Assembly: GCA_041687435.1 (NCBI GenBank)
Contig: JAWLBX010000015.1
Span: 5,860 to 69,859, forward strand
From: Alphaproteobacteria bacterium
Lineage (GTDB): Bacteria > Pseudomonadota > Alphaproteobacteria > Bin95
Length of the DNA: 64,000 nucleotides
Direction of reading: 5' to 3'
The notes under the pieces are model-generated. The model saw nothing but the letters and a program-made list of their open reading frames with translations. It searched no databases and was not told where the DNA came from. Shown here one piece after another: positions 29,083 to 60,399 of the stretch; within the stretch, counting starts at the first letter, position 1, and every line of letters starts with the position of its first letter. A program made the position numbers and the translations under genes.

Positions 29083-29109
29083 TTCGCACCTCGCGGCAAC
29101 AGCACGAAT

Positions 29110-29703: not shown

Positions 29704-29754
29704 ACTTTATTCAGACAACTCTAACGTCATGACCCGCGTGACGCAATATTTGCT

Positions 29755-41636: not shown

Positions 41637-41705
41637 GCTTGCTCCAGAAATTCGTCAAATAGGCCCAAGGCGACTTTTGTCGAAGCACCATATCAAGCGG
41701 ATGCT

Positions 41706-45157: not shown

Positions 45158-45160
45158 GCC

Positions 45161-45652
45161 TCAGGCGGGCACCCGTTGCATGAAGTAGCGCCTTGGCTTG
45201 ATCCCGTCGGGCAATGGCAGGCTTTCCCAGCCCTCGCCATTGATCGGCTGATCGGAGACAATAACGGCGCCGGGCGCGGTCAACTGGGATAGCGTATCCG
45301 CCAGGAATTGCGCCATCGCTGCGATGCTGGCGGCGTCACCCTGGCCAAAATCCGCATGCACCAGGGCAGCCTGGGCACCGATTCGCTCCGCCGCCGTGGG
45401 CAAGGTCTCGCGGAAATCTCCGAGGAACAAATCCTCGTTCGGCGGGGTGCAACTCGGGTGCGCCTGAACCAAGCGTTCGAACACATAAATCCGCCGGTCC
45501 GGCAGCCGCTCCCGCAGGTGGTCGTAGGTGCGGCCGTTGCCAAGCCCCAACTCCAGCACGGGCCCCGGCACATCGCCGATCATCTCTGCCGCACGGTCCA
45601 GGCAGGCGCGCTGGGCCTGCATGCGGCGGATAAAGCTGTCGAGCCGGCTCAT
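45161..45652 (-). CDS. putative class I SAM-dependent methyltransferase-fold protein
   Basis: 163 aa with a possible motif I 'VLELGLGNG'; the assignment is weak. Its start overlaps the stop of the upstream cNMP-binding gene by 4 nt. Confidence 0.45.
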   Translation of the reverse strand: MSRLDSFIRRMQAQRACLDRAAEMIGDVPGPVLELGLGNGRTYDHLRERLPDRRIYVFERLVQAHPSCTPPNEDLFLGDFRETLPTAAERIGAQAALVHADFGQGDAASIAAMAQFLADTLSQLTAPGAVIVSDQPINGEGWESLPLPDGIKPRRYFMQRVPA

Positions 45653-46101
45653 GCTGCATCCGCCCGCGCTTCGCGCAGGTCGGCCGTGGTTTTTTCCAGC
45701 CTTCGGGCCAGTTCCTTCATGATCTCTATTCCCATCTCCGGCACTTCGGTCACAAGCCGGAAAAAGTGATCCTTGGCAATCCTCAAGGTCGTCAGTTCGG
45801 TGGATGCCCGCACGGTTGCGGTGCGGGGGATGTCGATCAGAATGGCAATCTCGCCGACAATGTCATTGCATCCGAGTGTCGCCACTTTCAACTCCCCTGT
45901 CGGCGTTGCGACGATCACATCGGCATTGCCTTCCAGGATGATATAGGCGGCATCGCCCAAGTCGCCCTGGCGCACCACGTCTTCACCCGGCTGGAACACC
46001 ATGCGTTCGCTGGTAAACGCCAGAAGCTTGAGACGCCTGGCCTCTATCCGCTGGAACAGAGGCAGTCGGCGCAGGGCATCCACTTCCTGTGTTAGCGACA
46101 T
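45649..46101 (-). CDS. cyclic nucleotide-binding domain protein (stand-alone cNMP-binding, no HTH)
   Basis: 150 aa with the cNMP-binding β-roll region 'GDLGDAAYIILEGNADV…' and the phosphate-binding cassette 'GEIAIL…PRTATVRA'. Confidence 0.75.
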   Translation of the reverse strand: MSLTQEVDALRRLPLFQRIEARRLKLLAFTSERMVFQPGEDVVRQGDLGDAAYIILEGNADVIVATPTGELKVATLGCNDIVGEIAILIDIPRTATVRASTELTTLRIAKDHFFRLVTEVPEMGIEIMKELARRLEKTTADLREARADAA

Positions 46102-46121
46102 CGGTTTCTCCCGTTTTCCGG

Positions 46122-48746
46122 CTATTCCGCGGCCCTTGGCGGCGCCGCGTCGCCGATCATTTCAGCTTCGACACGGCCATTCTCGATGGTGAAGGTGCGA
46201 TGCATGGCCTGCGCCTGGCCCGGCTGGTCCAGGATCGCGACGATCCCTCTGGGGGCCTGCGCAGCGACAACGCTTTCGAACAGGGCCTCGCGCACCGACT
46301 CATCGAACACTGATAATGCCTGGTTGACCACCAAAAGGTCCGGCTGTTTCACCAGCGCCCGTGCGAATGCCAGCTTCTGCCGCTGCACCGCGGACAACCG
46401 CCCGCCGCCGACACCCACATGATAGTCCAACCCAACATTGAGGATGGCTTCGCGCAGGTCCAATTCGCTCAGCACCTCGCGGACAAGCGTGCGCACGCGC
46501 ACCACACCCTGCGGCTGCCCGAAAGCGACCTTGCCGAACAGGATATTGTCCTGAATGGAACTGGCGGAATTGTAGTGCTCCGGGTCAAAGAAGGCGACAC
46601 TGCCCTCCAATTCCGCCGGCAAATGCTCCGCAAACGACCGGCGCGCTTCCAGCAAACGGTCCCGCAAGGCATCGTCGATCAGGCCAAGACGATGGCGGGC
46701 GGGAATCAGGCGGAACGGAAGCGACAGCAGTCTGCGCCGGTCTTCGGCAGTCAACCCTTCCAGCCCCTGACCGCCGCGATCAATCCTGCCCAGAAGCGCC
46801 TGGAATTCCGGCAGGTCTTCGGCTGCGATGAAGCTGAACTGCTCCATCAGTTCTTGCCCCGGCTCGATATCGGCGAACAGTTCCACCATGGTTTCTGCCA
46901 CCTGACGGCCGATGCGGACAAAATCGTCGGTCAGTCCGACGCGGTCCAGCGTCTGCTGCACATAGTCATGCTCGCCCAGGTGTTCTAGGTCGAACGTGTC
47001 GCCAACCGGGGTGCCGAACAGCAAGTTCTCGGCTACGCTGGCGTTGTTGTTGTACAGGTTCAGATCGAATGGTTCGATCAGGCTGGTCGTACCAGCCTCC
47101 TCCACCCGCTCCCGCAGTGTCGCGCGCGCGACAAGCAATTGCTCCGTAAGGTCCGGGTGGGCGTCGGCATTGATTCGGCCACGCAGTCCGAATTCGTAGA
47201 TGTCGTCGGACAGCAAGGCATGGTCGATCGTCTCCAGCAGGCGATGCTGCAGGGATGCCGGGTCGGCATCCAGGCCCGCACCGTCATAATCGATCCAGTC
47301 GCCCTCCAGGTCATAGACACTGTTGCCTGCCGTTTCCGCCTCGGCAATCCAGGCGCGGCGGCTCTCATCGACATCAGCGGGCGGATGATTGCGCAGGGCC
47401 AGCATCACATTCTCGCGGATGGTGGCGGAAAACAGGTATGGCTGGGCTGCAACATAACCGATGCGCCGCCCAAGCCGTGCTTCCGGAATCGCCGCCAGAT
47501 CCTCGTCACCGTATTGCACCCGGCCCGAGGTCGGCACAGCCAGACGCACCAGCAATGGGCCGATCTCCTCCTTGCCGCCGCCACCGGGGCCGATGATGCC
47601 GATTCGCTCGTTCATGGCGAATGTGGCGGAGATATTGTGCAGATAAACAGTCCCATCGTCATCGGCCAGACTGACATTCCGGAAGGCGACCCGGGTATCG
47701 GGCGGAAACGGCGCCGGCGGCGTGTCGTCGGTCGCGTGGAGCTCCGGCGCCAGCATTCCGGGCGGGTCGAATTGTTGAATTACTGTTTCGTACTTGATCC
47801 TGGCGTCCTCCAACTGCTGATAATACGCCAACAGTTCCTTCCACGGCGCATTCATATCCTTGTGGGCGCTGATCACGGCAATCAGAGCGCCGACGCTCAG
47901 ATCGCCTTTGATCGCCAGATAACCACCCAGCGAATAGAACAAAAACGGCGTGAACTGTGCGAGAAAGTTATTGAAAAATTTTATGAAAAATTTGCGGCGA
48001 AAAATTTCGTACCGGATGTCGAAGATGATGCCCAGCCGGTGGGAGAACCGCGAAAGCTGATACTGGCTGCTGTCGTTGGTGTGAATTTCCGAAATACCGC
48101 TGATGCTCTCCCCCAGATGCTCAGACAGGATCCGCACATTCTGCACCCGGCGCTTTGCCAGCAGATTCACCTTTTTCTGCAAGCGCGGGATCACGACCGC
48201 CTGCAAGGGGAACAACGCGACCGCCGCAAGCCCCAGCAACGGATCCTGCATCAGGATGAACGCCAGCAGCGTGACCAGAATCCCGCCCTGATAAAGTGGC
48301 AGGGCGATCGCATCGCCGAAAAACCCGCCCAGCGGCTCCACTTCCTGCGTGACCATGGGGATCAATTCGCCCTGGCTGACGCGGCGGAAATGCGGCAGGG
48401 GAAAACGCAGAATGCGCTCATAGAGGATATAGCGCAGCCGGCGCAGCATCCGCTCGCCCAGCCGCCCCTTCATCACGTTCAGCATGTATTTGAACCCGCC
48501 ATTGATCAATACCAACGCCAGGAACACACCGCAGAGCGTGAACAGATACGGGACATGCTCCAATTCAAAGCCCAGAATCATAACGGGAAAATCGGCTGGA
48601 CGTCCTTGGATTGCGCCGTTGACGATCCGCTTCGGCAATTCTGCTTGCAAATAAATGAAAGGAAATGCAGCGAAAGTCAGCAAGACCAAAATAATCTGCT
48701 GGCGGGCGCTGAAAGCAAAAATGTAGCCAAACAGGGTTTGTTTCAT
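46122..48746 (-). CDS. ABC exporter-type fused permease/ATPase-like protein with degenerate, internally repeated nucleotide-binding domain
   Basis: 874 aa. The N-terminal ~330 aa are a 6-TM exporter domain. The NBD has a Walker A-like 'GPGGGGKEE' (no Ser/Thr), a Q-loop 'AAQ', then ~300 aa containing three partial repeats of the Q-loop-to-signature segment. The signature is 'LSAVQRQK' and the Walker B reads 'LLVVNQAL' (N-Q instead of D-E). Confidence 0.75.
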   Translation of the reverse strand: MKQTLFGYIFAFSARQQIILVLLTFAAFPFIYLQAELPKRIVNGAIQGRPADFPVMILGFELEHVPYLFTLCGVFLALVLINGGFKYMLNVMKGRLGERMLRRLRYILYERILRFPLPHFRRVSQGELIPMVTQEVEPLGGFFGDAIALPLYQGGILVTLLAFILMQDPLLGLAAVALFPLQAVVIPRLQKKVNLLAKRRVQNVRILSEHLGESISGISEIHTNDSSQYQLSRFSHRLGIIFDIRYEIFRRKFFIKFFNNFLAQFTPFLFYSLGGYLAIKGDLSVGALIAVISAHKDMNAPWKELLAYYQQLEDARIKYETVIQQFDPPGMLAPELHATDDTPPAPFPPDTRVAFRNVSLADDDGTVYLHNISATFAMNERIGIIGPGGGGKEEIGPLLVRLAVPTSGRVQYGDEDLAAIPEARLGRRIGYVAAQPYLFSATIRENVMLALRNHPPADVDESRRAWIAEAETAGNSVYDLEGDWIDYDGAGLDADPASLQHRLLETIDHALLSDDIYEFGLRGRINADAHPDLTEQLLVARATLRERVEEAGTTSLIEPFDLNLYNNNASVAENLLFGTPVGDTFDLEHLGEHDYVQQTLDRVGLTDDFVRIGRQVAETMVELFADIEPGQELMEQFSFIAAEDLPEFQALLGRIDRGGQGLEGLTAEDRRRLLSLPFRLIPARHRLGLIDDALRDRLLEARRSFAEHLPAELEGSVAFFDPEHYNSASSIQDNILFGKVAFGQPQGVVRVRTLVREVLSELDLREAILNVGLDYHVGVGGGRLSAVQRQKLAFARALVKQPDLLVVNQALSVFDESVREALFESVVAAQAPRGIVAILDQPGQAQAMHRTFTIENGRVEAEMIGDAAPPRAAE

Positions 48747-48941
48747 TGTTTTCCCTTGGCGCTGAGGCCAGGCCAGAGCCGGAACAACAGGCTACCGGAA
48801 AAGCCAACGGCAAACAATCAGTTGGCGGATAACTGCCTTTGAGCGTATATGAAAGGCAGGATAACAGTGCCAGCCATTGGCGGAAACGTTTGCGATCAAA
48901 CACCAATGGAACCTCCGCCCGGCGGGAGCAAGGAGCAGCGT

Positions 48942-50177
48942 ATGCAGGACGCGCTGGCAAATGATGGAGGCAGCAAAAGGCTGCTGATATACAGTCATGA
49001 CAGTTTTGGACTTGGCCATTTGCGGCGGTGCCGGGAAATCGCCAACGCACTGGTGGATGCTTACGACAATCTATCGGTTCTGATTCTGTCCGGATCGCCG
49101 ATCATCGGCAGCTTTGACTTCCGCCCGCGTGTCGATTTTGTGCGTATTCCCGGCATGATCAAGCTGTCCAATGGCGAATACACCTCGCACGCGCTGGATA
49201 TCGCGCCGGAAAAAACTTTGGAGCTGCGCGCCGCGGTGATCAGCGAGACTGCACGGATCTTCGATCCCGACCTGTTCCTGGTCGACAAGGAGCCGCTGGG
49301 CCTGCGGGGTGAGGTGCGGGCAACCCTGGAATTGCTACGCCTGCGCGGCACTCGAATCGTGCTGGGACTGCGCGATGTGATGGACGATCCGGACGCGCTG
49401 CAACCGGAATGGAAGCGCAAGCGCGCCCAGCCGGCCCTGCGCGATCTGTATGACGACATTTGGGTCTACGGCCTGCCGCAGATCTGCGACCCGCTGGAGG
49501 GGATCGACCTGCCGGATTCCGTGCGGCGCAAGATGGTCTACACCGGCTATTTGCGCCGGCGGGTTAGCACCTCTCCCGATGCTGCGGCAGGGCTGGTCGG
49601 TACCGAGCCCTATATTCTGGTCACCCCAGGCGGCGGCGGCGATGGCGATGCCCTGGTCGATTGGGTAATCCGCGCTTACGAGACCGACCCCGCCCAGCCT
49701 TACCGCGCGCTGATCGTGTTCGGCCCATTCATGCAGGGCGAGCAGCAACAGGCGTTCCGCCAGCGGATCGAGGGTCTGCCGAATGTCGAAGCGATCACCT
49801 TTTACAATCAGATGGAAACACTGATTGCCGGGGCTACCGGCGTCATTGCCATGGGCGGTTACAATACGTTCTGCGAAATCCTGTCCTTTGACAAACCGGC
49901 CATCATCGTCCCGCGCACCCGGCCACGGATGGAGCAATCGATCCGCGCCGCCAGGGCTCAGGAACTGGGGCTTGTGCGGATGCTCGACCCGGATGACGGC
50001 CGCCCGGCCCGTGTCATGGCCACGGCCATCCGGCAGTTGCCGCAGCAGGGGCGCCCGTCGGACGTCGTGGTGCCGGGGCTGCTCGACGGCCTCGACAATG
50101 TCAAACGCCTCGTAGGCCGGGCCTTGGAGCAGGGCCGGATCCAGCCCTTGCGCTTTGCCGAGGCGGGCGGTGACTGA
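48942..50177 (+). CDS. glycosyltransferase, GT-B fold (GT1/GT28-like)
   Basis: 411 aa from the internal ATG (AGGAG RBS). N-terminal 'LIYSHDSFGLGHLRR' resembles the GxGH nucleotide-sugar motif of MurG/GT1 enzymes. Paralogous to 53171..54331. Confidence 0.65.
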   Translation: MQDALANDGGSKRLLIYSHDSFGLGHLRRCREIANALVDAYDNLSVLILSGSPIIGSFDFRPRVDFVRIPGMIKLSNGEYTSHALDIAPEKTLELRAAVISETARIFDPDLFLVDKEPLGLRGEVRATLELLRLRGTRIVLGLRDVMDDPDALQPEWKRKRAQPALRDLYDDIWVYGLPQICDPLEGIDLPDSVRRKMVYTGYLRRRVSTSPDAAAGLVGTEPYILVTPGGGGDGDALVDWVIRAYETDPAQPYRALIVFGPFMQGEQQQAFRQRIEGLPNVEAITFYNQMETLIAGATGVIAMGGYNTFCEILSFDKPAIIVPRTRPRMEQSIRAARAQELGLVRMLDPDDGRPARVMATAIRQLPQQGRPSDVVVPGLLDGLDNVKRLVGRALEQGRIQPLRFAEAGGD

Positions 50178-51450
50178 ACCGGCAACGGGCAGCAAACCCG
50201 GCGGCGTCGCCGTCGTCCTCAAAGGCTATCCGCGCCTTTCCGAAACCTTCATCGCGCAGGAGATCCTGGCACTGGAGCAGCGTGGACTGCGCCAGCACAT
50301 CATCTCGCTGCGCCATCCGACGGATCAGAAACATCACCCGATGCACGCGGCGATCCGCGCGCCGGTGCTCTATCTGCCCGAATACCTCTACAAGGAACCG
50401 CTGCGGGTGATGCACGCTTGGTGGCAGGTGCGGCGCCGGCCCGCCTTTCGGGCCGTGCGCAGGCAGTGGCTACACGATCTCTGGCGCGACCGCACGCCGA
50501 ATCGCGGCCGCCGCTTCGGCCAAGCGCTGGTGCTGGCGGCGGAACTGCCTGCGGACATTGGCCATTTGCATGCCCATTTCCTGCACACACCCGCCTCGGT
50601 CACCCGCTACGCCGCGGCGCTGTGCGGCCTGCCGTGGAGCGTCTCCGCCCACGCCAAGGACATCTGGACCTCGCCCGAATGGGAAAAACGCGAGAAGCTG
50701 GCGGATTGCGCCTGGGCCGTTACCTGCACCGCTTTCGGCGCGGCGCACCTGCAAGCCCTGGCGTCGGAGCCTGAGCGGGTAGAACTGCTGTATCATGGCC
50801 TCGACCTCGGCCGGTTTCCGCCGCCGCTGGCCGAACGGGGCGCGCGCGACGGCGGCGATGCCGGCGCGCCGGTCCGCATCCTGTCGGTCGGGCGCGCGGT
50901 GCCGAAAAAGGGGTATGATGACCTGCTGAACGCGCTGGCCCAGCTGCCGCCCGGCCTGGCCTGGCATTTCACCCATATCGGCGGCGGCAAGCTGGCCGCC
51001 CGCCTGAAACAACAGGCAGAGCGGCTTGGCATTGCGGACCGCATCACCTGGCAGGGCTCGCAGGCGCAGGAGGCTGTGGTCGCCGCCTACCGCGAGGCTG
51101 ACCTGTTCGTGCTGGCCAGCAAAGTCGCCAGCGATGGCGACCGCGACGGCCTGCCAAACGTGCTGATGGAGGCGCAAAGCCAAGGCCTCGCCTGCCTCGC
51201 CACCACGGCGGCCGGCATTCCCGAACTGATTCGCGACGATGAGACCGGGCGCCTCACGCCGCCGGGCGACCCCGCTGCCTTGGCCGACGCCCTGGCAGAC
51301 CTGATCCGCGCACCGCAGGAACGGGCTCGCCTTGGCACTGCAGGAGCGCAGGCGCTGAGCCGCCGTTTCTCGTTCGGGAACGGCATTGACCGGCTGGCCC
51401 GGCGCTTCGGTCTGACGGCTGGCGCACCGGCCGTCCGTGCCGCGGAATAG
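50155..51450 (+). CDS. glycosyltransferase family 4 (GT4, RfaB-like)
   Basis: C-terminal GT4 motifs ('ILSVGRAVPKKGYDDLL', 'EADLFVLAS…DGLPNVLMEAQSQGLACLAT', the E-x7-E region). Confidence 0.8.
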   Translation: MPRRAVTEPATGSKPGGVAVVLKGYPRLSETFIAQEILALEQRGLRQHIISLRHPTDQKHHPMHAAIRAPVLYLPEYLYKEPLRVMHAWWQVRRRPAFRAVRRQWLHDLWRDRTPNRGRRFGQALVLAAELPADIGHLHAHFLHTPASVTRYAAALCGLPWSVSAHAKDIWTSPEWEKREKLADCAWAVTCTAFGAAHLQALASEPERVELLYHGLDLGRFPPPLAERGARDGGDAGAPVRILSVGRAVPKKGYDDLLNALAQLPPGLAWHFTHIGGGKLAARLKQQAERLGIADRITWQGSQAQEAVVAAYREADLFVLASKVASDGDRDGLPNVLMEAQSQGLACLATTAAGIPELIRDDETGRLTPPGDPAALADALADLIRAPQERARLGTAGAQALSRRFSFGNGIDRLARRFGLTAGAPAVRAAE

Positions 51451-51465
51451 AGGCAGCAGTCCCGC

Positions 51466-52596
51466 ATGCGGATCGCCTTTTATGCTCCGCTGAAAGCGCC
51501 GGATCATCCAACCCCTTCCGGCGACCGCCGCATCGCGCGCCTGTTGCTCGACGCATTGCAGCGCGGCGGACACGAGGTGCATCTGGCAGCGCGCTTGCGC
51601 TCCCGCGACCCGGCGGGCGACCGACTGCGGCAGGCGCGCCTCGCCGATCTGGGGCAGCGGCTCGCGGCCCGCCTGCTGCGGCGCTATGCGGAGGCCAACA
51701 GGCCGCCGGATGTATGGATTACCTATCACCTTTACTACAAGGCTCCCGATTGGATCGGCCCGCATGTCGCCGCCGCCTTGGCCATCCCCTACATCGCCAT
51801 AGAGGCCAGCCACGCACCGAAACGTGCTGGCAGCCCCTGGCATCTGGGCCACCGGGCCGTCGAACATGCGGTGCGCCAGGCTGCCCGTGTTGTTTGCCTG
51901 AATCCGAATGACTACGCCTGCCTGGAGCCGCTCGCCGCGGGGCGGATTGCCATGCTGGCCCCGTTCCTCGACCCCACGCCCTATGCGCCACCTGCCGCCG
52001 ACACCCGCACGGCTCTGGCCGCGCGCTATGGCCTGCCCATGGCAGAGCCCTGGCTGCTGGCTGTCGGCATGATGCGGACCGGCGACAAACTCGCCTCCTA
52101 CCGGCAACTGGCGGAGGCGTTGCAGGGCTTGCAAGGGCGCCCCTGGCGCCTGATCGTCGTCGGCGACGGCCCGGCGGCGGCGGAGGTTCGAGCGGCCTTC
52201 GCCCCCTTCGCCGGCCGCATCGCCTGGCTTGGCACCCTGGACGAGGCCGCCCTCGCCTGCGCCTATCAAGCCGCCGACATGCTGGTCTGGCCAGCGGTGC
52301 GCGAGGCATTCGGCATGGCGCTGTTGGAGGCCCAGGCCGCTGGCCTGCCTGTCGTTGCCGGCAACACGGATGGCGTGCCCGCCGTGGTTGCGGATGGTGA
52401 GACCGGACTGCTGCCTGCGCCGGGCGACACACGCGCCTTTGCCGCTGCCGTCAACACCCTGCTGGACGATCCCGCCCGGCGTGAGGCGATGGGGCAGGCT
52501 GCGCGGGCGCGTGTTTTGCGGCATCATTCGCTCGACGCCGCAGCAAAACAGCTCGACCGTATTCTGTTGGAGGCCACATGCCGCTCCTCAGCCTGA
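51466..52596 (+). CDS. glycosyltransferase family 4 (GT4)
   Basis: GT4 C-terminal domain ('LLAVGMMRTGDKLASY', 'AADMLVWPAVREAFGMALLEAQAAGLPVVAG'). Confidence 0.8.
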   Translation: MRIAFYAPLKAPDHPTPSGDRRIARLLLDALQRGGHEVHLAARLRSRDPAGDRLRQARLADLGQRLAARLLRRYAEANRPPDVWITYHLYYKAPDWIGPHVAAALAIPYIAIEASHAPKRAGSPWHLGHRAVEHAVRQAARVVCLNPNDYACLEPLAAGRIAMLAPFLDPTPYAPPAADTRTALAARYGLPMAEPWLLAVGMMRTGDKLASYRQLAEALQGLQGRPWRLIVVGDGPAAAEVRAAFAPFAGRIAWLGTLDEAALACAYQAADMLVWPAVREAFGMALLEAQAAGLPVVAGNTDGVPAVVADGETGLLPAPGDTRAFAAAVNTLLDDPARREAMGQAARARVLRHHSLDAAAKQLDRILLEATCRSSA

Positions 52597-53174
52597 TCCG
52601 GCACGCACCGACCACCTGGAACGAGGCCGGCCTGATCCAAGGCCAGACCGATACGCCACTCAGCGAGACCGGCCGTGCCGCCCTGCTCACCTGGGAACCG
52701 CCGCCGCCCTTGCTCGCCGCGGAGTGGTGGACCAGCCCGTTGCAACGCTGCTGCGACACCGCACGGCATCTGGCAGGCCGTAACGTGCCCGTAGATGAGC
52801 GGCTACAGGAAACCCATTGGGGCGAATGGCAGGGCAAGCGCCTGGCCGACTTGCGCGAGAACCTGGGCGAGGCCATGACCGAGATGGAGGGCCGCGGCTG
52901 GGATTTTTGCCCGCCCGGCGGCGAAAGCCCCCGCGACGTCTCCATCCGGTTTCAGGCATTCATCCGCGATGTAGCGGCGCGCGACCGGCAAACGGTCGCG
53001 GTCACGCACCGCGGCGTGATCCGGGTTGCCATGGCGCTGGCCACCGGCTGGGATTTCCTTGGCAAGACACCGGTAAAACTGCAACGTCCCGCTGCCCATA
53101 TTTTCTGGGTGACGCCAGAGGGCATGCTGGAACTGCGCACCGCCAATGCGCCGCTGGGCGAAGTGGCGATATGA
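52578..53174 (+). CDS. histidine phosphatase family protein (phosphoglycerate mutase-like)
   Basis: N-terminal 'LIRHAPTTWN' RHG-type catalytic motif. 198 aa. Confidence 0.7.
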   Translation: MPLLSLIRHAPTTWNEAGLIQGQTDTPLSETGRAALLTWEPPPPLLAAEWWTSPLQRCCDTARHLAGRNVPVDERLQETHWGEWQGKRLADLRENLGEAMTEMEGRGWDFCPPGGESPRDVSIRFQAFIRDVAARDRQTVAVTHRGVIRVAMALATGWDFLGKTPVKLQRPAAHIFWVTPEGMLELRTANAPLGEVAI

Positions 53175-54331
53175 GCGGCAGGGCCGGCCCCGCCAGAATT
53201 CTGTTCTGGGTCCAGCATCTGCTGGGCATCGGCCACCTGAAGCGGACCTCCACCCTGGCCCGCGCCCTGGCCGATGCGGGATTTAACGTGACGGTGGTTT
53301 CCGGCGGTTTTCCCGTGCCAGGGCTGCGTCTGGGCCGCGCCAGCTTCGTGCAACTGCCGCCGGTACGTGCGGTCGACCTCTACTTCAAGGATTTGCGGAC
53401 CGAGGGCGGCAGACCGATAGACGATGCCTGGCGCGAAACCCGGCGCGCTGCGCTGATGGCTGCCGCCGACGCCATCCAACCCGATATCGTGCTGACCGAG
53501 TTGTTCCCCTTCGGCCGCCGGCAAATGGCCTTTGAACTGGAGCCCTTTCTGACTGAAATGCGCGCCCGCGGCGCCTATATCGCCTGTTCTGTCCGCGACA
53601 TACTGGTGGCGCCGCCAAAGCCCGAGCGGCTGCTGGAGATGCTGGAGCGCACCGAACGCCTGTTCGACCGGGTGTTGGTACATGGCGACCCCAACCTGGT
53701 ACCATTCGAGGAAACCTTTCCGCATAGGGAACGGCTCGGCGACCGCCTCGCCTATACCGGCTATGTGGTCGAGGAGCCGATCAAGGTCGCAGGCCGGGAT
53801 GGCGCGGGCGAAGTGATTGTTTCCGCCGGCGGCGGCGCGGTCAGCGAGCCGCTGCTGCGGGCTGCGCTCGCCGCGAAACCGCTCAGCCAGGCCCGCAGCC
53901 TGCCCTGGCGGCTGCTCTGCGGCGCCGGCATCGGCGAGGCCGCGATGCTGGACCTTCAGCATCTGGCCGACCCGGCCACGGTGGTTGAACCGGCCCGGCC
54001 GGATTTCCCCGGCCTGTTGGCCCGCGGCCGCCTGTCGGTCAGCCAAGCCGGCTACAACACCATTATGGATGTACTGGCCGCCGGCATTCCTGGCGTCGTC
54101 GTGCCCTATGCAGGAGGCCTTGAGAGCGAGCAGACCCTGCGTGCCCGCCGCCTGGCGGAGCGCGGTGTGCTGCATGTGGTCGACGAGGCCAGCCTGTCGC
54201 CCGAAACCCTGGCTGCGGCTATCGACCGGGCGCTGACGGTGCCGAGGCGCGCGCTCGGCAACCTCGCCACAGAAGGCGCGTCCGAAACCATACGCCTGTT
54301 GCGGACTGCGCTGGACAACTGCCGCACATGA
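53171..54331 (+). CDS. glycosyltransferase, GT-B fold (GT1/GT28-like), paralog of 48942..50177
   Basis: 386 aa from the internal ATG overlapping the previous stop (ATGA). 'ILFWVQHLLGIGHLKR' and the C-terminal 'GGYNT…' block parallel the first paralog. Confidence 0.65.
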   Translation: MSGRAGPARILFWVQHLLGIGHLKRTSTLARALADAGFNVTVVSGGFPVPGLRLGRASFVQLPPVRAVDLYFKDLRTEGGRPIDDAWRETRRAALMAAADAIQPDIVLTELFPFGRRQMAFELEPFLTEMRARGAYIACSVRDILVAPPKPERLLEMLERTERLFDRVLVHGDPNLVPFEETFPHRERLGDRLAYTGYVVEEPIKVAGRDGAGEVIVSAGGGAVSEPLLRAALAAKPLSQARSLPWRLLCGAGIGEAAMLDLQHLADPATVVEPARPDFPGLLARGRLSVSQAGYNTIMDVLAAGIPGVVVPYAGGLESEQTLRARRLAERGVLHVVDEASLSPETLAAAIDRALTVPRRALGNLATEGASETIRLLRTALDNCRT

Positions 54332-55095
54332 CGGTGTTCGAACCCCTGCTCGCCGAATTGGATGCCTGGGCCGCCGAAGGCAGGATGCTGAAATTCTGGT
54401 GGCGCGACGATGACGCAACCGAAACCTCGAACGCGCTGACGGCCATGCTGGCTGTCGCCCGGGCCGCGAACATCCCGTTGGCGCTGGCCGTCATCCCGAT
54501 GACCGCAACGGAAGGATTGGCAGCCGCCATCGCTCGCACTGAAGGCATCGCCATCTGGCAGCACGGCATCCGCCATGCCAACCGTGCCGAGCCACCGACC
54601 AAGAAGCAGGAACTCATCGCCGCCGATAGAGCGGTGCTGGACGGCCTGCGACAAGGTCAAGCAAGGCTGGCGCAACTGTTCGGGCAGCGGGCGCAAGCGG
54701 TGCTGGTGCCACCCTGGAACCGGATCGGTGCGGGCCTGCTGCCGCACCTGCCAAGGCTGGGCTTCCAAGGGCTATCCACCTTCAAGCCACGGGGCTCGCC
54801 AAGGCCAACGCCCGGTCTGGTGCAGATCAACACTCACGCCGACCTACTCGACTGGCGGGCGGGCGCGGCCTTTCGTGGCGCCGGCGCCTGCATCGGTGAT
54901 CTCGTCTCGCACGCGCAGGCAAAACGGCGGCGGTTTGATGATCCGCTGGAGCCGACAGGAATCCTGACCCACCATCTTGTCATGCAGGCAGATGCCTGGG
55001 ACTTTCTAACCGGCCTGTTCGCGGCTACAAAAGCGCATCCGGCATGCACCTGGATCTTGCCTGCTTTTTCCGTCTCAGAACCGGAGTTTGAATGA
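54328..55095 (+). CDS. polysaccharide deacetylase-like protein (CE4/DUF2334-like), tentative
   Basis: 255 aa; 'FWWRDDDA' is reminiscent of the NodB-type TFDDG motif. Translationally coupled to its neighbours. Confidence 0.45.
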   Translation: MTVFEPLLAELDAWAAEGRMLKFWWRDDDATETSNALTAMLAVARAANIPLALAVIPMTATEGLAAAIARTEGIAIWQHGIRHANRAEPPTKKQELIAADRAVLDGLRQGQARLAQLFGQRAQAVLVPPWNRIGAGLLPHLPRLGFQGLSTFKPRGSPRPTPGLVQINTHADLLDWRAGAAFRGAGACIGDLVSHAQAKRRRFDDPLEPTGILTHHLVMQADAWDFLTGLFAATKAHPACTWILPAFSVSEPEFE

Positions 55096-55604
55096 CCAAC
55101 GCAGAGGCGCGCTTTCATTATCCGCTAAAGAACCTGGTGCCAGACTATTTGCGCGCGGGCGCTGGCTTTGGCCTGACCATGGTGCCGATGCCGCATGCCA
55201 TCGGTGGCAGCCCGGTTGTTTTGGTCATCGTTCTGGGCCTCGCCGGGTTGTTCGGATCGTTCGGGCTGACGACCCTGGTGCGCCAGAAAAGCACCATCTG
55301 CGCCTCGGATGAAGGGCTGTGGATCGAGGGCCTGCGCCCCCGTGCCATGCGATGGGAGGAGGTCCGCGAAATCGACCTGCGCTATTTTTCAACCCGAAAA
55401 GACAGGGAGCAGGGCTGGTTTCAACTGAAAGTCATCGGCCCTAACGGTACGATCAAGGTGGATTCGAACCTGAACGATTTCGATGGGCTGCTGCACCGGA
55501 TCGTGACCGCGATCACTCGACACGACCTGTCGGTTACGCCTATTGGTCGGGAAAACCTGACATCGATGGGCCAAACCTTGCCCTACCGGGAGGACGATGC
55601 GTGA
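55092..55604 (+). CDS. hypothetical membrane-associated protein
   Basis: 170 aa with two hydrophobic helices near the N-terminus. 4-nt overlaps with both neighbouring genes. Confidence 0.4.
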   Translation: MTNAEARFHYPLKNLVPDYLRAGAGFGLTMVPMPHAIGGSPVVLVIVLGLAGLFGSFGLTTLVRQKSTICASDEGLWIEGLRPRAMRWEEVREIDLRYFSTRKDREQGWFQLKVIGPNGTIKVDSNLNDFDGLLHRIVTAITRHDLSVTPIGRENLTSMGQTLPYREDDA

Positions 55605-57463
55605 CGCCGCTGCTTGAGGTCGAAAATCTCTGCATCGACTTCAACCTGGCCAGCGGCCCGATGCGGGCTGTGGATGGCCTCAGCTTCCGCGTGCCTGCCT
55701 GCCGCACCGTCGCGCTGGTTGGCGAAAGCGGCTCCGGCAAGTCGGTCACGGCGCAGGCGATCATGGGCATTTTGCCGAGAGTCGCATCCATCACCAGCGG
55801 CGCCATCCGGTTCCGCGATCCCGACGGCGATGGAACGATGATCGACCTGGCCCAACTGGCGCCGAACAGCGCCGCCTTCCGCAATCTGCGCGGCGGCCGC
55901 ATCGCCATCATATTTCAGGAGCCGATGACCTCGCTCTCGCCGGTGCACACCATAGGCAACCAGATCGGCGAAGCCCTGGAACTGCACCGCGGCATCTCCA
56001 GCCGCGAGGCACGGGCCGAAACCGCCGAAATGCTGAGCCTTGTCGGCTTTCCCGACCCGAAACGCGCGGTTGACAGCTACCCTTTTGAACTGTCCGGTGG
56101 CCTGCGCCAGCGGGCCATGATCGCCATGGCGCTGGTCTGCCAGCCGGCCCTGCTGATCGCCGACGAACCGACCACGGCGCTGGACGTTACCATCCAGGCG
56201 CAAATCCTGAAGCTGCTGAAAGACCTGCAGGGCCGCTTCGAGATGGCTGTTCTGATCATCACCCACGATCTGGGCGTGGTCGCCAACGTCGCGGACGAGG
56301 TGGTGGTGCTCTACCATGGCAAGCTGATGGAATCCGGCCCGGTGGAGGAGATTTTCCGCAATCCCGGCCATCCCTACCTGAAAGCGCTGCTGCACGCCGT
56401 CCCTCGCTTTCACATGGAGCCCGGCGAACGGCTGGTGCCCCTGCGGGAGGTGGAGGCGTCAAGCGGCACGCTGTTGGCGCCCAGGCCGCCGCTGGCAGGG
56501 GCCGAGCCGATTCTTTCGGTCCGGAACCTTTCCAAATCGTTCGGCCAGCGCAAACGGGGCCTGTTCGGCGGCAGCGCAGCGGAGCGGGTGCAGGCAGTGC
56601 GCGACGTTTCCTTCACCATCGCGCCGGGGGAGTGCCTGGGGCTGGTGGGGGAAAGCGGCTGCGGCAAGTCTACCGCCTCCAAAATCATCATGCGGGCGGT
56701 CCAGCCGGATACGGGCAGCATCACGCTGCGCACGGAAGACGGCCCGCTCGACGTTCTGTCGGCGGAAGGCCGCGACCTGATGCGCCTGCGCAGCCGCTTG
56801 CAATATATTTTTCAGGATCCTTTCAGCGCCCTCAACCCCCGCATGACGGTGTTCGACATCGTCAGTGAGCCGTTGGTCATCCATGGCATCGGTACGCCGC
56901 AGGAACGGCGCGCTTTCGTCATTGAACTGATGCAGCGGGTCGGCCTCGATCCCCGCTACCTGAACCGGTATCCCCACAGCTTTTCCGGCGGGCAGCGCCA
57001 GCGCATCGGCATTGCCCGGGCGCTCGCCCTGCGTCCGCAGGTGCTGATCTGCGACGAGCCGGTTTCCGCCCTGGACGTATCGGTACAGGCGCAGATTCTG
57101 AACCTGCTGAAAGACCTGCAACGCGAGCTCGGTCTGACCTATCTCTTCATCTCCCACAATCTGGCGGTGGTGGACTATATGGCCGACCGCATCGCGGTAA
57201 TGTGCGCCGGACGTCTGGTGGAACTGGCGCCGCGCACCGCTCTGTTCCGCGCACCTATGCATCCCTACACCCAGGCGCTGCTGACGGCGGTGCCAGAGCC
57301 AAGCCTGGACCATCCGCTAGACTTCAACCGGGTGATGGACGAACGCAGCTCCGACCCGGCGGCATGGCCGGCCCCCTATGCCGATGCCGACGGCAGCGCC
57401 GTGCTGACCGAGGTCGAACCCGGCCATTTCGTCCGCCGCTCCGCAGTTGCGGCTGCGGCATAG
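55601..57463 (+). CDS. ABC transporter ATP-binding protein with duplicated ATPase domains (DppD/DppF-like fusion)
   Basis: Two complete NBDs (Walker A GESGSGKS and GESGCGKS, two LSGGxRQR signatures, two Walker B motifs) plus oligopeptide-type C-terminal extensions. Confidence 0.9.
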
Positions 57464-57479
57464 AAGGAGGCGTCAAGTG

Positions 57480-59357: not shown

Positions 59358-59400
59358 GGACAATGGCGATGCGCGCGACGACAGGCCGGCAGGCCCGCCA

Positions 59401-60399
59401 ATGCTGACCTACATGGCCCGCCGCATCCTGGTGATGATTCCGACGCTGCTGGCGATCAGCATGCTGGTGTTCATCATCATTCAACTGCCGCCTGGCGATT
59501 ATCTCACCACCTACATGGCTGAACTGGAGGCCCAGGGCGAGGCCGTCGATCCCGGCAAGATCGAATTCCTGCGCCAGCAATACGGCCTCGACAAACCCTA
59601 TTGGGAGCAATACCTGCTGTGGCTCGGCGGCATGCTGACCGGCGATTTCGGCTATTCCTTCGCCTATGACCTGCCGGTGAGCGATGTGGTGGGCGACCGG
59701 TTGTATCTCAGCTTCCTGCTGTCGTTCTCCACCATCATCTTCACATGGGTGGTGGCCTTCCCCATCGGCATTTATTCCGCCACCAATCAGTACAGTTGGG
59801 GCGACCATGGCCTGACATTCATCGGTTTTCTGGGGCTGGCAACGCCGAACTTCCTGCTGGCATTGGTGATGCTCTATTTTGGCAAGGTCTGGTTCGGCAC
59901 CTCCATCGGCGGACTGATGGACCCGGAATATCTCAACCAGCCGATGTCCTGGGCCAAATTCCTAAGCGTGCTGGAGCACCTGTGGGTGCCGGTGGTGGTG
60001 ATCGGCACGTCCGGAACCGCAGGAATGATCCGGCGCTTACGGGCCAACCTGCTGGACGAGTTGCAGAAACAGTATGTCGTGACGGCGCGGGCCAAGGGGC
60101 TTAGTCCGTTCAAGGTATTGACCAAATACCCGCTGCGCATGGCGCTGAACCCGTTCATTGCCGACATTGGCAACCTGCTGCCGCAGGTGGTTTCCGGCGC
60201 GGCGATCGTCTCGCTGGTGCTCTCCCTGCCGACAACCGGACCGATGCTGATCGAGGCGCTGAGGGCGCAGGATATGTACCTGGCCGGGTCGTTCCTCATG
60301 TTTTTGGCGGCGCTCACCGTCGTCGGCGTACTGATTTCCGACCTGGCACTGGCTGCGCTTGACCCGCGCATCCGCCTGGGCGGAGGGACGGAGCAATGA
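59401..60399 (+). CDS. ABC transporter permease (DppB/OppB-like)
   Basis: 332-aa 6-TM protein with the ABC-permease EAA loop (…AKGLSP…). Confidence 0.85.
   Translation: MLTYMARRILVMIPTLLAISMLVFIIIQLPPGDYLTTYMAELEAQGEAVDPGKIEFLRQQYGLDKPYWEQYLLWLGGMLTGDFGYSFAYDLPVSDVVGDRLYLSFLLSFSTIIFTWVVAFPIGIYSATNQYSWGDHGLTFIGFLGLATPNFLLALVMLYFGKVWFGTSIGGLMDPEYLNQPMSWAKFLSVLEHLWVPVVVIGTSGTAGMIRRLRANLLDELQKQYVVTARAKGLSPFKVLTKYPLRMALNPFIADIGNLLPQVVSGAAIVSLVLSLPTTGPMLIEALRAQDMYLAGSFLMFLAALTVVGVLISDLALAALDPRIRLGGGTEQ

What the first reader, a model, noticed from the sequence alone, without database searches (positions are those of the whole stretch)
45161..48746. ABC exporter-like protein with catalytically dead, internally triplicated NBD, in an operon with a cNMP-binding protein
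Seen in sequence: in the 874-aa protein the Walker A reads GPGGGGKEE (Glu where Ser/Thr coordinates Mg). The Walker B position reads LLVVNQALSVFD (N-Q in place of the catalytic D-E). The signature reads LSAVQRQK instead of LSGGQ. Between the Q-loop ('AAQPYLFSATIRENV') and the signature there are ~300 extra residues containing two further degenerate copies of the post-Q-loop helical-subdomain motif ('LYNNNASVAENLLFGTP…', 'HYNSASSIQDNILFGKV…'). Downstream in the same operon, with 4-nt overlaps, are a stand-alone cyclic-nucleotide-binding protein and a small methyltransferase-fold protein. The operon is divergent from a glycosyltransferase cluster. Inference: a homodimer of this protein could not hydrolyse ATP conventionally. 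It may be a regulatory or pseudo-ABC component, it may pair with another ATPase, or its gating may be controlled by the cNMP-binding partner. It may be linked to polysaccharide or glycolipid export from the adjacent GT cluster.
Basis: partly seen in the sequence, partly recalled or inferred. Interest (0 to 1): 0.55.

Follow-up and report, generated by a model that had tools for sequence, protein, structure and literature searches.

The report
Dead-ATPase ABC exporter with cNMP sensor
This gene encodes a membrane protein shaped like an ATP-driven ABC exporter that has lost the residues needed to burn ATP, carries a tripled piece of its ATPase domain, and always travels with a cyclic-nucleotide sensor and a sugar-transferase cluster; it belongs to a large, undescribed family in alphaproteobacteria, including model rhizobia.

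Summary
The 874-aa ORF (46122-48746, minus strand) has a six-helix type IV ABC-exporter membrane domain and one nucleotide-binding domain (NBD). Its motifs read GPGGGGKEE (Walker A), LLVVNQ (Walker B and catalytic base), LSAVQ (signature) and Asp at the H-loop His. No canonical motif lies elsewhere. About 290 residues inserted after the Q-loop hold two further copies of the Q-loop-strand and helical-subdomain unit (profile-profile E 1e-10 to 2e-5).

This is a conserved family, not decay:
- At least 594 species genomes encode it, including Azospirillum, Rhizobium and Sinorhizobium pSymB.
- dN/dS is 0.13.
- The catalytic positions are degenerate family-wide, while the membrane domain and repeat 2 are the most conserved parts.

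A cNMP-binding protein with an intact phosphate-binding cassette lies immediately downstream in 81 of 83 loci. It is fused to the C-terminus in all 16 long representatives. The glycosyltransferase, phosphatase and Yej-like importer operon is syntenic throughout. No second exporter gene lies nearby.

Best reading: an ATP-independent ABC-fold transporter or gate for the cluster's glycoconjugate, controlled by cyclic nucleotide. The anatomy is shown; the mechanism is inferred. I found no publication or curated family. I rate it a new variant of a known kind.

The parts
46122..48746 (-). 874-aa ABC-exporter-fold pseudo-ATPase (whole gene)
   Evidence: ORF. Pfam ABC_membrane E 3.7e-22 and partial ABC_tran E 5.6e-14. 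AF2 model mean pLDDT 85.9, pTM 0.80. Foldseek hits are type IV ABC exporters only. dN/dS 0.13 against an 80%-identical orthologue.
47757..48746 (-). Transmembrane domain, residues 1-330 (six long helices with coupling loops)
   Evidence: PF00664 match at residues 67-293. Helices in the AF2 model. Most constrained part of the protein: dN/dS 0.067, and 51 of 330 columns are at least 80% conserved across 67 aligned full-length sequences.
47565..47591 (-). Walker A-like P-loop GPGGGGKEE (Glu393 in place of Ser/Thr)
   Evidence: Alignment to P-glycoprotein. Coordinates verified. In 120 homologues, Glu or Asp occupies this position in 108 and the Lys is kept in 93. The Lys is absent in S. meliloti (GGTSGGGE) and R. 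leguminosarum (GPNGSGAE).
47442..47444 (-). Q-loop Gln435
   Evidence: Aligns to the P-glycoprotein Q-loop Gln. Only 20 of 120 homologues keep Gln here.
47079..47462 (-). Repeat 1 (residues 429-556): native Q-loop strand, the ENV helix and an expanded helical segment
   Evidence: hhalign against repeat 2 E 8.7e-6 and against repeat 3 E 2.4e-5. DSSP pattern.
46599..47078 (-). Repeat 2 (residues 557-716): VEPFD strand, YNxNASVAENLLFG, helical bundle; the most conserved part of the insertion
   Evidence: hhalign against repeat 3: probability 97%, E 1e-10. 22 of 160 columns are at least 80% conserved in the wide family. dN/dS 0.13.
46407..46598 (-). Repeat 3 (residues 717-780): VAFFD strand, YNxAxSIQDNILFG, and the helices that lead into the signature motif; this is the copy continuous with the canonical helical subdomain
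   Evidence: Residues from 740 on align to P-glycoprotein 'IAYG...'. hhalign.
46374..46397 (-). Degenerate signature motif LSAVQRQK
   Evidence: Aligned to LSGGQKQR. Positions 786 and 787 vary across the family, while QRQK is conserved.
46302..46337 (-). Walker B-like and D-loop segment LLVVNQALSVFD (Asn808 and Gln809 in place of Asp and Glu)
   Evidence: Alignment. Asn occupies the Asp position in 107 of 120 homologues, and the catalytic-base position varies (D, E, Q, N, G).
46227..46229 (-). H-loop position, Asp840 in place of His
   Evidence: Alignment. His is kept in 22 of 120 homologues.
45649..46101 (-). 150-aa stand-alone cyclic-nucleotide-binding protein, the partner or regulatory module
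   Evidence: PF00027 E 1.8e-18. Phosphate-binding cassette GEIAILIDIPRTATV aligns to PKG and PKA cassettes. The cassette's Arg is kept in all 81 syntenic orthologues and Gly-Glu/Asp in 80, with minor substitutions at other positions. Adjacent to the ABC-like gene in 81 of 83 loci. Fused to the C-terminus of the ABC-like protein in 16 of 16 long representatives and in P0108.
45161..45652 (-). 163-aa Methyltransf_17 (PF12692) SAM-methyltransferase-fold protein, with a 4-nt ATGA overlap onto the cNMP gene
   Evidence: Pfam E 6.5e-59. Matches PDB 3IHT at E 8.9e-43. Present in 60 of 83 loci. Junction sequence.
48849..50177 (+). GT28-like glycosyltransferase (first gene of the divergent operon)
   Evidence: PF04101. 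Syntenic in 72 of 83 loci.
50155..51450 (+). GT4 glycosyltransferase
   Evidence: PF00534 E 1e-32. Syntenic in 69 of 83 loci.
51466..52596 (+). GT4 glycosyltransferase (its best NCBIfam hits are the MshA and BshA models, all below their cutoffs)
   Evidence: Syntenic in 64 of 83 loci.
52578..53174 (+). Histidine phosphatase (His_Phos_1)
   Evidence: Syntenic in 60 of 83 loci.
53171..54331 (+). Second GT28-like glycosyltransferase
   Evidence: Syntenic in 71 of 83 loci.
54328..55604 (+). Two conserved unknown genes: a 255-aa protein that may be deacetylase-like (weak DUF2334 hit) and a 170-aa small membrane protein
   Evidence: Syntenic in 51 and 49 of 83 loci.
55601..61580 (+). Yej/Opp-type ABC importer in the same overlapping operon: fused double ATPase, SBP_bac_5 binding protein, two permeases
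   Evidence: The ATPase is syntenic in 55 and the binding protein in 43 of 83 loci, limited by locus ends. In L052 the importer lies directly downstream of ABC-cNMP on the same strand.

Best explanation
The gene encodes a member of a large, so far undescribed alphaproteobacterial family of type IV ABC-exporter-fold membrane proteins. Their nucleotide-binding domain has become a pseudo-ATPase, and its helical subdomain has been triplicated.

Shown:
- The fold is intact and under purifying selection.
- The ATP-binding and hydrolysis residues are lost or drifting family-wide.
- The insertion is a conserved triplication.
- A ligand-competent cNMP-binding domain is an obligate companion, either adjacent or fused.
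- The whole unit is embedded in a conserved cluster of four glycosyltransferases, a phosphatase, a possible deacetylase and a Yej-like importer.

Inferred mechanism:
- The protein works as a homodimer, without ATP hydrolysis, as the membrane translocation or gating module for the glycoconjugate made by the cluster.
- The pseudo-NBD with its enlarged helical subdomain serves as a cytoplasmic docking and switch platform.
- Binding of cAMP or cGMP to the partner domain, rather than ATP, controls association of the two pseudo-NBDs. Through the retained coupling helices, this controls the inward/outward state of the membrane domain.
- The driving force would be the substrate gradient or the proton-motive force. 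SbmA/BacA, whose membrane domain resembles type IV ABC transporters but is proton-driven, is a precedent (PMC12912959).
For: - Motif loss in this protein.
- Family-wide degeneracy: Walker A Ser/Thr is Glu or Asp in 108 of 120 homologues, Walker B Asp is Asn in 107 of 120, the Q-loop Gln is kept in 20 of 120 and the H-loop His in 22 of 120. Only 2 of 67 aligned full-length sequences combine GK[ST] with D-E. The rhizobial orthologues lack even the Walker A Lys.
- Not decay: dN/dS is 0.13 overall, 0.07 in the membrane domain and 0.12-0.24 in the NBD parts. The AF2 model has pLDDT 85.9. At least 594 species genomes encode it. The insertion alone finds 958 cluster representatives.
- Pattern of constraint: the membrane domain and repeat 2 are the most conserved parts and the RecA-like core the least.
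- Physical link to the cNMP partner: adjacent in 81 of 83 loci; fused in 16 of 16 long representatives and in P0108; the cassette's ligand-contacting residues are kept in essentially all of 81 orthologues (Arg in 81, Gly-Glu/Asp in 80).
- Source of the ligand: a class III adenylate/guanylate cyclase gene flanks the cluster in R. leguminosarum and S. meliloti.
- Link to the cluster: syntenic from 80% to about 39% identity. In L052 the gene sits between the glycosyltransferases and the importer on one strand (L076 shows the same order up to ABC-cNMP, where the contig ends).
- Homodimer: no second exporter-type gene lies within 10 kb in 83 loci or in the 64-kb window.
Against: - No experiment. 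ATP binding, cNMP binding, the partner interaction and the substrate are all untested.
- In the window protein and its close relatives the P-loop glycines and Lys are kept, and the replacement residues are themselves conserved (Glu/Asp after Lys; Asn at Walker B). Some non-canonical nucleotide or phosphate-ligand binding therefore cannot be excluded.
- A few family members keep nearly canonical motifs, for example P0237 with GSGKST and ILILDEA.
- Some fusions carry an additional degenerate GGDEF domain. That fits a signalling role at least as well as transport.
- No energy source is demonstrated, and I could not assess whether the membrane domain has a proton pathway.
- The tools return no model coordinates, so where the insertion and the cNMP domain sit is unknown.
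Confidence: 0.5

Rival explanations
1. The protein is a signalling or scaffold pseudo-transporter and moves nothing. It would be a membrane-anchored regulator, comparable in logic to SUR, or to FtsEX and BceAB, which transduce signals. It would use its exporter-fold membrane domain to sense a lipid or periplasmic ligand. Its enlarged pseudo-NBD would recruit and control the glycosyltransferases, the Yej-like importer or second-messenger enzymes, with the cNMP domain as a second input.
For: - The catalytic machinery is lost.
- The insertion is a conserved surface-rich helical elaboration with no structural counterpart in the PDB.
- It is fused to sensor-type domains, cNMP_binding and degenerate GGDEF.
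- It is strictly clustered with enzymes and an importer.
Against: - The membrane domain, including the coupling loops, is the most strongly constrained part (dN/dS 0.07). That is what one expects if conformational coupling and a translocation pathway still matter.
- The cytoplasmic glycosyltransferases need some route for their product, and no other exporter lies in the cluster.
Confidence: 0.25
2. The protein is still nucleotide-dependent. Either it binds ATP without hydrolysing it and uses binding as a switch, perhaps with the Walker A acidic residue compensating for the Walker B Asn, or it heterodimerises with an active ABC half-transporter encoded elsewhere.
For: - In the close relatives, GxxGxGK is kept in 93 of 120, and the substituted residues are themselves conserved: Glu/Asp in 108 of 120 and Asn in 107 of 120.
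- A few family members are near-canonical.
- Heterodimeric exporters with one degenerate site are well known (papers listed, e.g. PMC12038006).
Against: - Across the wider family the Walker A Lys, the Q-loop Gln, the H-loop His and the signature glycines all drift.
- In one and the same chain both the Walker side and the signature side are degenerate. Even in a heterodimer, both composite sites would therefore be impaired.
- No partner gene lies within 10 kb in 83 loci, whereas heterodimeric exporters are normally encoded as adjacent pairs (general knowledge).
- Each of the best 80 loci comes from a different contig.
Confidence: 0.14
3. The gene is a decaying pseudogene or an assembly or annotation artefact.
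For: There is no positive evidence. The only basis is the fact of motif loss.
Against: - The 874-codon ORF is intact.
- dN/dS is 0.13.
- Orthologues of constant length occur in hundreds of genomes, including complete genomes of cultured strains.
- The predicted fold is confident.
Confidence: 0.01

Closest known systems
Homodimeric type IV ABC exporters (MsbA, Sav1866, NdvA/ChvA, PglK, ABCB-type half transporters)
   Same: Both have a six-helix ABC_membrane domain followed by one NBD in a single chain. The best sequence and structure matches are P-glycoprotein, TmrAB, BmrA, Sav1866 and NdvA. The genomic association with glycan-synthesis genes recalls MsbA, PglK and NdvA.
   Different: Walker A Ser/Thr, Walker B Asp, the catalytic Glu, the signature glycines and the H-loop His are all replaced. 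A 290-residue triplication sits inside the helical subdomain. All NCBIfam equivalog scores are far below cutoff, e.g. MsbA 146 bits against 602.
Heterodimeric ABC exporters with one degenerate site (TM287/288, TmrAB, BmrCD, PatAB, Rv1273c/72c, CydDC)
   Same: Non-canonical residues at catalytic positions are tolerated and used for regulation (papers listed).
   Different: In those proteins only one composite site is degenerate, the other is active, and the two genes are adjacent. Here both halves of the site are degenerate in one chain, and no partner gene is nearby.
SbmA/BacA (SLiPT) secondary transporters
   Same: They set a precedent that a membrane domain resembling type IV ABC transporters can run without ATP, using the proton gradient (PMC12912959, read). 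They are also found in rhizobia, alongside YejABEF peptide uptake (PMC10128002, abstract).
   Different: SbmA/BacA have no NBD at all and carry a glutamate ladder. Here a full-size but dead NBD is kept and enlarged. Pfam returned no match other than ABC_membrane and ABC_tran, hence none to an SbmA/BacA model. A proton pathway was not assessed.
C-terminal regulatory domains of ABC importer ATPases (MalK, MetN, ModC) and the CFTR R domain and degenerate site
   Same: A ligand- or signal-sensing module attached to the NBD C-terminus controls NBD closure (general knowledge). The cNMP domain sits at exactly that position in the fused relatives.
   Different: Those systems still hydrolyse ATP. The sensor here is a cyclic-nucleotide-binding domain and the NBD is catalytically degenerate.
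Cyclic-nucleotide-gated bacterial channels (SthK, MloK1) and N-terminal cNMP-like domains of bacteriocin-type ABC exporters (TIGR03896 / TIGR03797, HetC)
   Same: A cNMP_binding domain is coupled to a membrane transport protein. SthK is among the sequence hits of the partner protein. TIGR03896 is a weak hit.
   Different: The membrane fold differs from the channels. In the bacteriocin exporters the domain is N-terminal and the NBD is active.

Membership tests
ABC transporter, type IV exporter fold (Pfam ABC_membrane + ABC_tran) | Six-helix ABC_membrane transmembrane domain | tested here: met
   PF00664 E 3.7e-22, residues 67-293. AF2 helices. Foldseek top hits are all type IV exporters.
ABC transporter, type IV exporter fold (Pfam ABC_membrane + ABC_tran) | NBD fold (RecA-like core plus helical subdomain) after TM6 | tested here: met
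   PF00005 matches residues 369-462, and the C-terminal half aligns at 740-860 to P-glycoprotein. pLDDT is above 90 over the core.
Catalytically competent ABC ATPase | Walker A GxxGxGK[ST] | tested here: not met
   The motif reads GPGGGGKEE, with Glu at the Ser/Thr position. Glu or Asp in 108 of 120 homologues.
Catalytically competent ABC ATPase | Walker B hhhhD followed by the catalytic Glu | tested here: not met
   The motif reads LLVVNQ. Asn in 107 of 120 homologues. No hhhhDE elsewhere in the protein.
Catalytically competent ABC ATPase | Signature LSGGQ | tested here: not met
   The motif reads LSAVQ. The two Gly positions vary across the family.
Catalytically competent ABC ATPase | H-loop His and Q-loop Gln | tested here: not met
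   Asp840 stands at the His position. Gln435 is present here, but Gln is kept in only 20 of 120 homologues.
Catalytically competent ABC ATPase | Measured ATP binding and hydrolysis | not testable with these tools
   Needs purified protein.
MsbA / NdvA / HepA / CydDC / HlyB equivalogs (NCBIfam) | Score at or above the curated cutoff | tested here: not met
   The best hit is MsbA TIGR02203 at 145.8 bits against a cutoff of 602. All 127 hits are below their cutoffs.
Heterodimeric ABC exporter with one degenerate site | Adjacent gene for a second half-transporter with complementary intact motifs | tested here: not met
   No second exporter-type membrane-domain hit within 10 kb in 83 loci or in the 64-kb window.
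SbmA/BacA (SLiPT) | Membrane domain only, with no NBD; match to an SbmA/BacA family model | tested here: not met
   An NBD is present. Pfam returned only ABC_membrane and ABC_tran at E <= 0.01.
Cyclic-nucleotide-binding domain proteins (partner, PF00027) | cNMP_binding fold with an intact phosphate-binding cassette (G-E ... R-[ST]-A) | tested here: met
   PF00027 scores 66.7 bits against a cutoff of 27.5. The cassette GEIAILIDIPRTATV aligns to PKG/PKA. Its Arg is kept in all 81 orthologues and Gly-Glu/Asp in 80; the residue after Arg is Thr/Ser in most and Asn/Val in about 9.
Cyclic-nucleotide-binding domain proteins (partner, PF00027) | Actual binding of cAMP or cGMP | not testable with these tools
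   Needs ITC or an equivalent assay.

The most novel reading that the evidence does not exclude
This would be a cyclic-nucleotide-gated, ATP-independent ABC-fold transporter or channel. In this family the cNMP-binding module has replaced ATP as the ligand that closes and opens the pseudo-NBD dimer. The second-messenger level would then directly gate translocation of a glycoconjugate across the inner membrane. The triplicated helical subdomain would be the new interface that makes this possible.
Probability: 0.25. Interest if true: 0.85.

Novelty: new variant of a known kind. Interest (0 to 1): 0.64.

Why it matters
ABC exporters are defined by ATP-driven NBD dimerisation. This family has a complete exporter fold in which both halves of the ATP site have degenerated, yet the protein stays under strong purifying selection. 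It shows that the fold can be re-used with a different switch and a different energy source.

The obligate pairing, and frequent fusion, with an intact cyclic-nucleotide sensor points to a direct second-messenger input into membrane translocation of a glycan or glycolipid. No route of that kind has been described for bacterial cAMP/cGMP signalling.

The family is present in genetically tractable organisms: S. meliloti pSymB, R. leguminosarum plasmids and Azospirillum. The question is therefore directly testable by deletion, suppressor, biochemical and cryo-EM experiments. The product of the conserved cluster (glycosyltransferases, phosphatase, possible deacetylase and importer) is itself unknown.

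Tried and rejected
- Canonical motifs elsewhere: a regex search for a second, canonical Walker A, Walker B or signature motif in the protein found none.
- Partner half-transporter: tblastn found none within 10 kb in 83 loci or in the window.
- Pseudogene idea: rejected by dN/dS and conservation.
- Charge swap between Walker A Glu/Asp and Walker B Asn: co-occurrence tables show no consistent coupling, and the wider family drifts at both positions.
- Sequence profile of the insertion against all PDB chains: only one chance-level hit (E 0.16).
- Foldseek of an insertion-only AF2 model (pLDDT 84.9) against the PDB: nothing better than E 1.1. The insertion as a whole has no solved counterpart.
- Literature: searches on degenerate or pseudo ABC exporters, cNMP plus ABC, PF12692, and rhizobial pSymB found no description of this family.
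- Two leads failed. The Clr regulon paper (PMC5498481) does not list this cluster. S. meliloti msbA2 is described in a different pSymB region, near stcD and phn; I did not compare its sequence or coordinates with the hit (PMC12239276).
- Promoter and terminator scan of 44900-49100: at chance level.
- Rfam and tRNA scans: only tRNA-Pro, far from the locus.
- S. meliloti 2011 pSymB: the record carried no annotation in the plasmid collection, so I could not recover 1021/2011 locus tags.

Full report
**1. What is there**

Three co-oriented ORFs lie on the minus strand:
- an 874-aa protein at 46122-48746;
- a 150-aa protein at 45649-46101;
- a 163-aa protein at 45161-45652.

Pfam assigns them ABC_membrane plus a partial ABC_tran, cNMP_binding, and Methyltransf_17 respectively. 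The ABC-like stop codon and the cNMP start codon are separated by 20 nt that contain GGGAGA. The cNMP and methyltransferase genes overlap by ATGA.

Upstream and divergent, a run of genes whose neighbouring ORFs mostly overlap by a few to about 20 nt starts at 48849. In order it encodes:
- a GT28-like glycosyltransferase;
- two GT4 glycosyltransferases;
- a His_Phos_1 phosphatase;
- a second GT28-like glycosyltransferase;
- two unknown proteins of 255 and 170 aa;
- a fused double ABC ATPase of the Yej/Opp type;
- an SBP_bac_5 binding protein;
- two permeases.

**2. The motif substitutions are real**

A phmmer alignment to human P-glycoprotein places each motif as follows.

| Motif | Sequence here | Canonical counterpart |
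|---|---|---|
| Walker A | GPGGGGKEE | GxxGxGKST |
| Q-loop | Gln435 | Gln |
| Signature | LSAVQRQK | LSGGQKQR |
| Walker B and D-loop | LLVVNQALSVFD | ILLLD(E/Q)ATSALD |
| H-loop | Asp840 | His |

The coordinates were verified by translation. Every NCBIfam exporter equivalog scores far below its cutoff; MsbA reaches 146 bits against 602.

**3. The insertion is a triplication**

The NBD alignment breaks after about residue 450 and resumes at 740. Both 'IRENVMLAL' at the break and 'VAFG' at 740 align to the same P-glycoprotein segment, 'AENIAYG'. I cut the family alignment into three segments and compared them profile against profile:

| Comparison | Result |
|---|---|
| 556-720 vs 716-800 | 97% probability, E 1e-10, 56 columns |
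| 428-560 vs 556-720 | E 8.7e-6 |
| 428-560 vs 716-800 | E 2.4e-5 |

The repeated unit is a strand (IGYV / IEPF / VAFF), then x-Y-N-x-x-A-S-h-x-[ED]-N-h-L-F-G, then a helix, then 'hGL.dd...G'. This corresponds to the Q-loop strand plus the first part of the helical subdomain.

The AlphaFold2 model built from 81 sequences has mean pLDDT 85.9 and pTM 0.80. It shows a closely similar order of elements in all three repeats: a strand, a short helix and a pair of helices; the second short strand after the short helix is present only in repeats 2 and 3. The insertion is mostly above pLDDT 88.

Taken alone, the insertion has no significant sequence hit and no significant Foldseek hit in the PDB. The full model matches only type IV exporters.

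**4. It is a family, not an accident**

The word-indexed search returned more than 100 full-length relatives of 868-938 aa at 50-84% identity. Across 120 of them:
- the Walker A Ser/Thr position is Glu or Asp in 108;
- the Walker A Lys is kept in 93;
- the Walker B Asp position is Asn in 107;
- the catalytic-base position is any of D, E, Q, N or G;
- the Q-loop Gln is kept in 20;
- the H-loop His is kept in 22.

An exhaustive phmmer search with the insertion alone found 958 representatives of 50%-identity clusters at E <= 1e-3, and 269 at E <= 1e-30. Among 66 full-length representatives the catalytic positions are even more scrambled. Only two of the 67 aligned sequences combine GK[ST] with D-E.

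A scan of one genome per species found at least 594 genomes with a relative. The best 80 are mostly labelled Alphaproteobacteria (a few MAG records carry other or generic labels): Thalassobaculum, Nisaea, Azospirillum, Stellaceae, Geminicoccaceae and Sneathiella. The plasmid collection adds Rhizobium (144 records), Sinorhizobium (80, on pSymB), Ensifer, Phyllobacterium and others, at about 37-39% identity over the full length. The S. meliloti and R. leguminosarum orthologues lack even the Walker A Lys: GGTSGGGE with FYVFNQ, and GPNGSGAE with YFIFNR.

Against an 80%-identical orthologue (L088), dN/dS by region is as follows.

| Region | dN/dS |
|---|---|
| Whole protein | 0.13 |
| Membrane domain | 0.07 |
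| Repeat 2 | 0.13 |
| Signature to C-terminus | 0.12 |
| N-terminal NBD core | 0.24 |
| Repeat 1 | 0.22 |

Across the wide family, the membrane domain and repeat 2 hold most of the columns that are at least 80% conserved. The RecA-like core holds very few. The protein is functional, but selection has moved away from the ATP site.

**5. The cNMP-binding protein is part of the machine**

- tblastn of the window's cluster proteins against 83 loci finds the cNMP gene directly downstream of the ABC-like gene in 81.
- In those 81 orthologues the cassette's ligand-contacting residues are kept: the Arg in all 81, Gly-Glu (or Gly-Asp) in 80, and Thr/Ser after the Arg in most, with Asn or Val in about nine. 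It aligns to the PKG and PKA cassettes.
- Sixteen of the 66 full-length distant representatives are 1010-1206 aa long. All 16 carry a C-terminal cNMP_binding domain, and two also carry a weak GGDEF match.
- One 51%-identical relative, P0108, is a single 1187-codon ORF with ABC-like, cNMP and degenerate GGDEF parts; 'QESEF' stands in place of GGDEF.
- In R. leguminosarum and S. meliloti, an adenylate/guanylate cyclase gene flanks the cluster.

By the domain-fusion argument, the two proteins interact physically.

**6. The cluster**

The following genes are syntenic with the ABC-like gene in the 83 loci. Counts are limited by contig ends.

| Gene | Loci out of 83 |
|---|---|
| GT28a | 72 |
| GT4a | 69 |
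| GT4b | 64 |
| His_Phos | 60 |
| GT28b | 71 |
| Unknown, 255 aa | 51 |
| Unknown, 170 aa | 49 |
| Yej-like ATPase | 55 |
| SBP (binding protein) | 43 |
| Methyltransf_17 | 60 |

In L052 everything lies on one strand in the order GT28a-GT4a-GT4b-HisP-GT28b-ABC-cNMP-YejF-SBP; L076 shows the same order up to ABC-cNMP, where the contig ends. The rhizobial versions keep the importer, three glycosyltransferases, the ABC-like gene and the cNMP gene.

The 255-aa protein has only a weak DUF2334 hit. Its 'WWRDDDA ... WQHGIRH' motifs suggest to me a deacetylase-type fold. S. meliloti has an annotated polysaccharide deacetylase nearby. The product of the cluster is unknown. The combination of GT4, phosphatase and possible deacetylase recalls, by logic only, the MshA/BshA-type routes that make GlcN-glycosides (weak NCBIfam hits).

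**7. How it most likely works**

Shown:
- an intact, selected exporter fold;
- loss of the ATP catalytic residues family-wide;
- a conserved triplicated helical subdomain;
- an obligate cNMP sensor;
- an obligate glycosyltransferase/importer context;
- no neighbouring partner half-transporter.

Inferred:
- The protein forms a homodimer whose membrane domain still switches or gates, because it is the most constrained part.
- The switch is no longer driven by ATP. It is controlled by cyclic-nucleotide binding to the partner domain, which sits at the NBD C-terminus, the position of the regulatory domains of MalK and MetN (general knowledge).
- Energy comes from the substrate gradient or the proton-motive force. 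SbmA/BacA is a precedent: its membrane domain resembles type IV ABC transporters but is proton-driven (PMC12912959).
- The substrate would be the glycoconjugate made by the cluster.

I put about 0.5 on this overall picture. The anatomy part is close to certain. The cNMP-gated, ATP-independent transport part stands at roughly 0.25-0.4.

**8. Rivals**

- (a) A non-transporting signalling or scaffold protein (0.25). The sensor-domain fusions and the novel surface-rich insertion favour it. The very strong constraint on the membrane domain and the lack of any other exporter in the cluster count against it.
- (b) Residual nucleotide dependence, or a distant active partner (0.14). Conservation of the P-loop glycines, the Lys and the replacement residues in the close relatives favours it. 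Drift of all motifs in the wider family, degeneracy of both halves of the site in one chain, and the absence of a partner gene disfavour it.
- (c) Pseudogene or artefact (0.01). Refuted.

**9. Comparison with the known, and novelty**

By fold, the protein is a member of the type IV ABC exporter class. It fails every sequence criterion of a competent ABC ATPase, and it fails the criteria for heterodimeric single-degenerate-site exporters and for SbmA/BacA (see the membership table).

No curated Pfam or NCBIfam model covers the insertion or the family. Source annotations are generic: 'ABC transporter transmembrane domain-containing protein', 'ABC transporter ATP-binding protein', 'multidrug transporter'. 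Seven full-text searches found no description.

I rate it a new variant of a known kind. It is widespread, present in model rhizobia, and experimentally accessible.

**10. Limits**

- The tools return no model coordinates, PAE or multimer predictions, so the position of the insertion and the docking site of the cNMP domain are unknown.
- dS of about 1 in the dN/dS comparison is near saturation.
- Taxonomic breadth beyond the best 80 genome loci was not inspected.
- The paper library covers open-access literature only.

Noticed in passing
window 41166-41636 (-): A 156-aa HEPN_AbiU2 (abortive-infection-type) gene (Pfam E 2.6e-21) sits in a low-GC stretch (GC 0.53 for 40001-42000), between the metallophosphoesterase and luciferase-like genes. 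In the syntenic close relative L088 those two genes are only about 180 bp apart with no such gene between them. It looks like a recent insertion of a defence gene.
   Followed up: partly
window 48849-61580 (+): Eleven genes whose neighbouring ORFs mostly overlap by a few to about 20 nt form one apparent operon. It joins four glycosyltransferases, a histidine phosphatase and two unknown proteins to a complete Yej/Opp-type ABC importer. This unusual pairing of biosynthesis with an importer is conserved in dozens of genomes. Its product and substrate are unknown.
   Followed up: partly
window 54328-55095 (+) and 55092-55604 (+): The 255-aa protein has no significant Pfam match (DUF2334 at E 0.05) but carries 'WWRDDDA' and 'WQHGIRH' motifs, which remind me of CE4/DUF2334-type deacetylases. 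The 170-aa protein appears to have one or two N-terminal membrane helices and no family match.
   Followed up: partly
L084 1-101; L086 1-648; L087 6685-8034: In R. leguminosarum WSM2304 plasmid pRLG202 and in S. meliloti pSymB, a class III adenylate/guanylate cyclase gene lies at the edge of the homologous cluster. It is a possible dedicated source of the cyclic nucleotide. No cyclase was noted among the cluster genes annotated in the window; the rest of the window was not screened.
   Followed up: partly
L003 1229-4792 (P0108); P0210, P0220: Some relatives are triple fusions: ABC-like, cNMP_binding and a degenerate GGDEF domain ('QESEF' in place of GGDEF in P0108). This gives a second pseudo-enzyme domain in the same polypeptide.
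   Followed up: partly
P0237, P0196, P0127 (representative proteins): A few family members that carry the insertion keep near-canonical motifs; P0237 has GTPGSGKST and ILILDEA. They may be evolutionary intermediates in which the insertion arose before catalysis was lost.
   Followed up: no
window 26001-30000: A second stretch of lower GC (0.54-0.57) with strongly negative GC skew stands out against a background of about 0.60-0.69. Not examined.
   Followed up: no
window 20700-20776 (+): A single tRNA-Pro (anticodon TGG) is the only RNA gene that ARAGORN or Rfam detects in the window.
   Followed up: no
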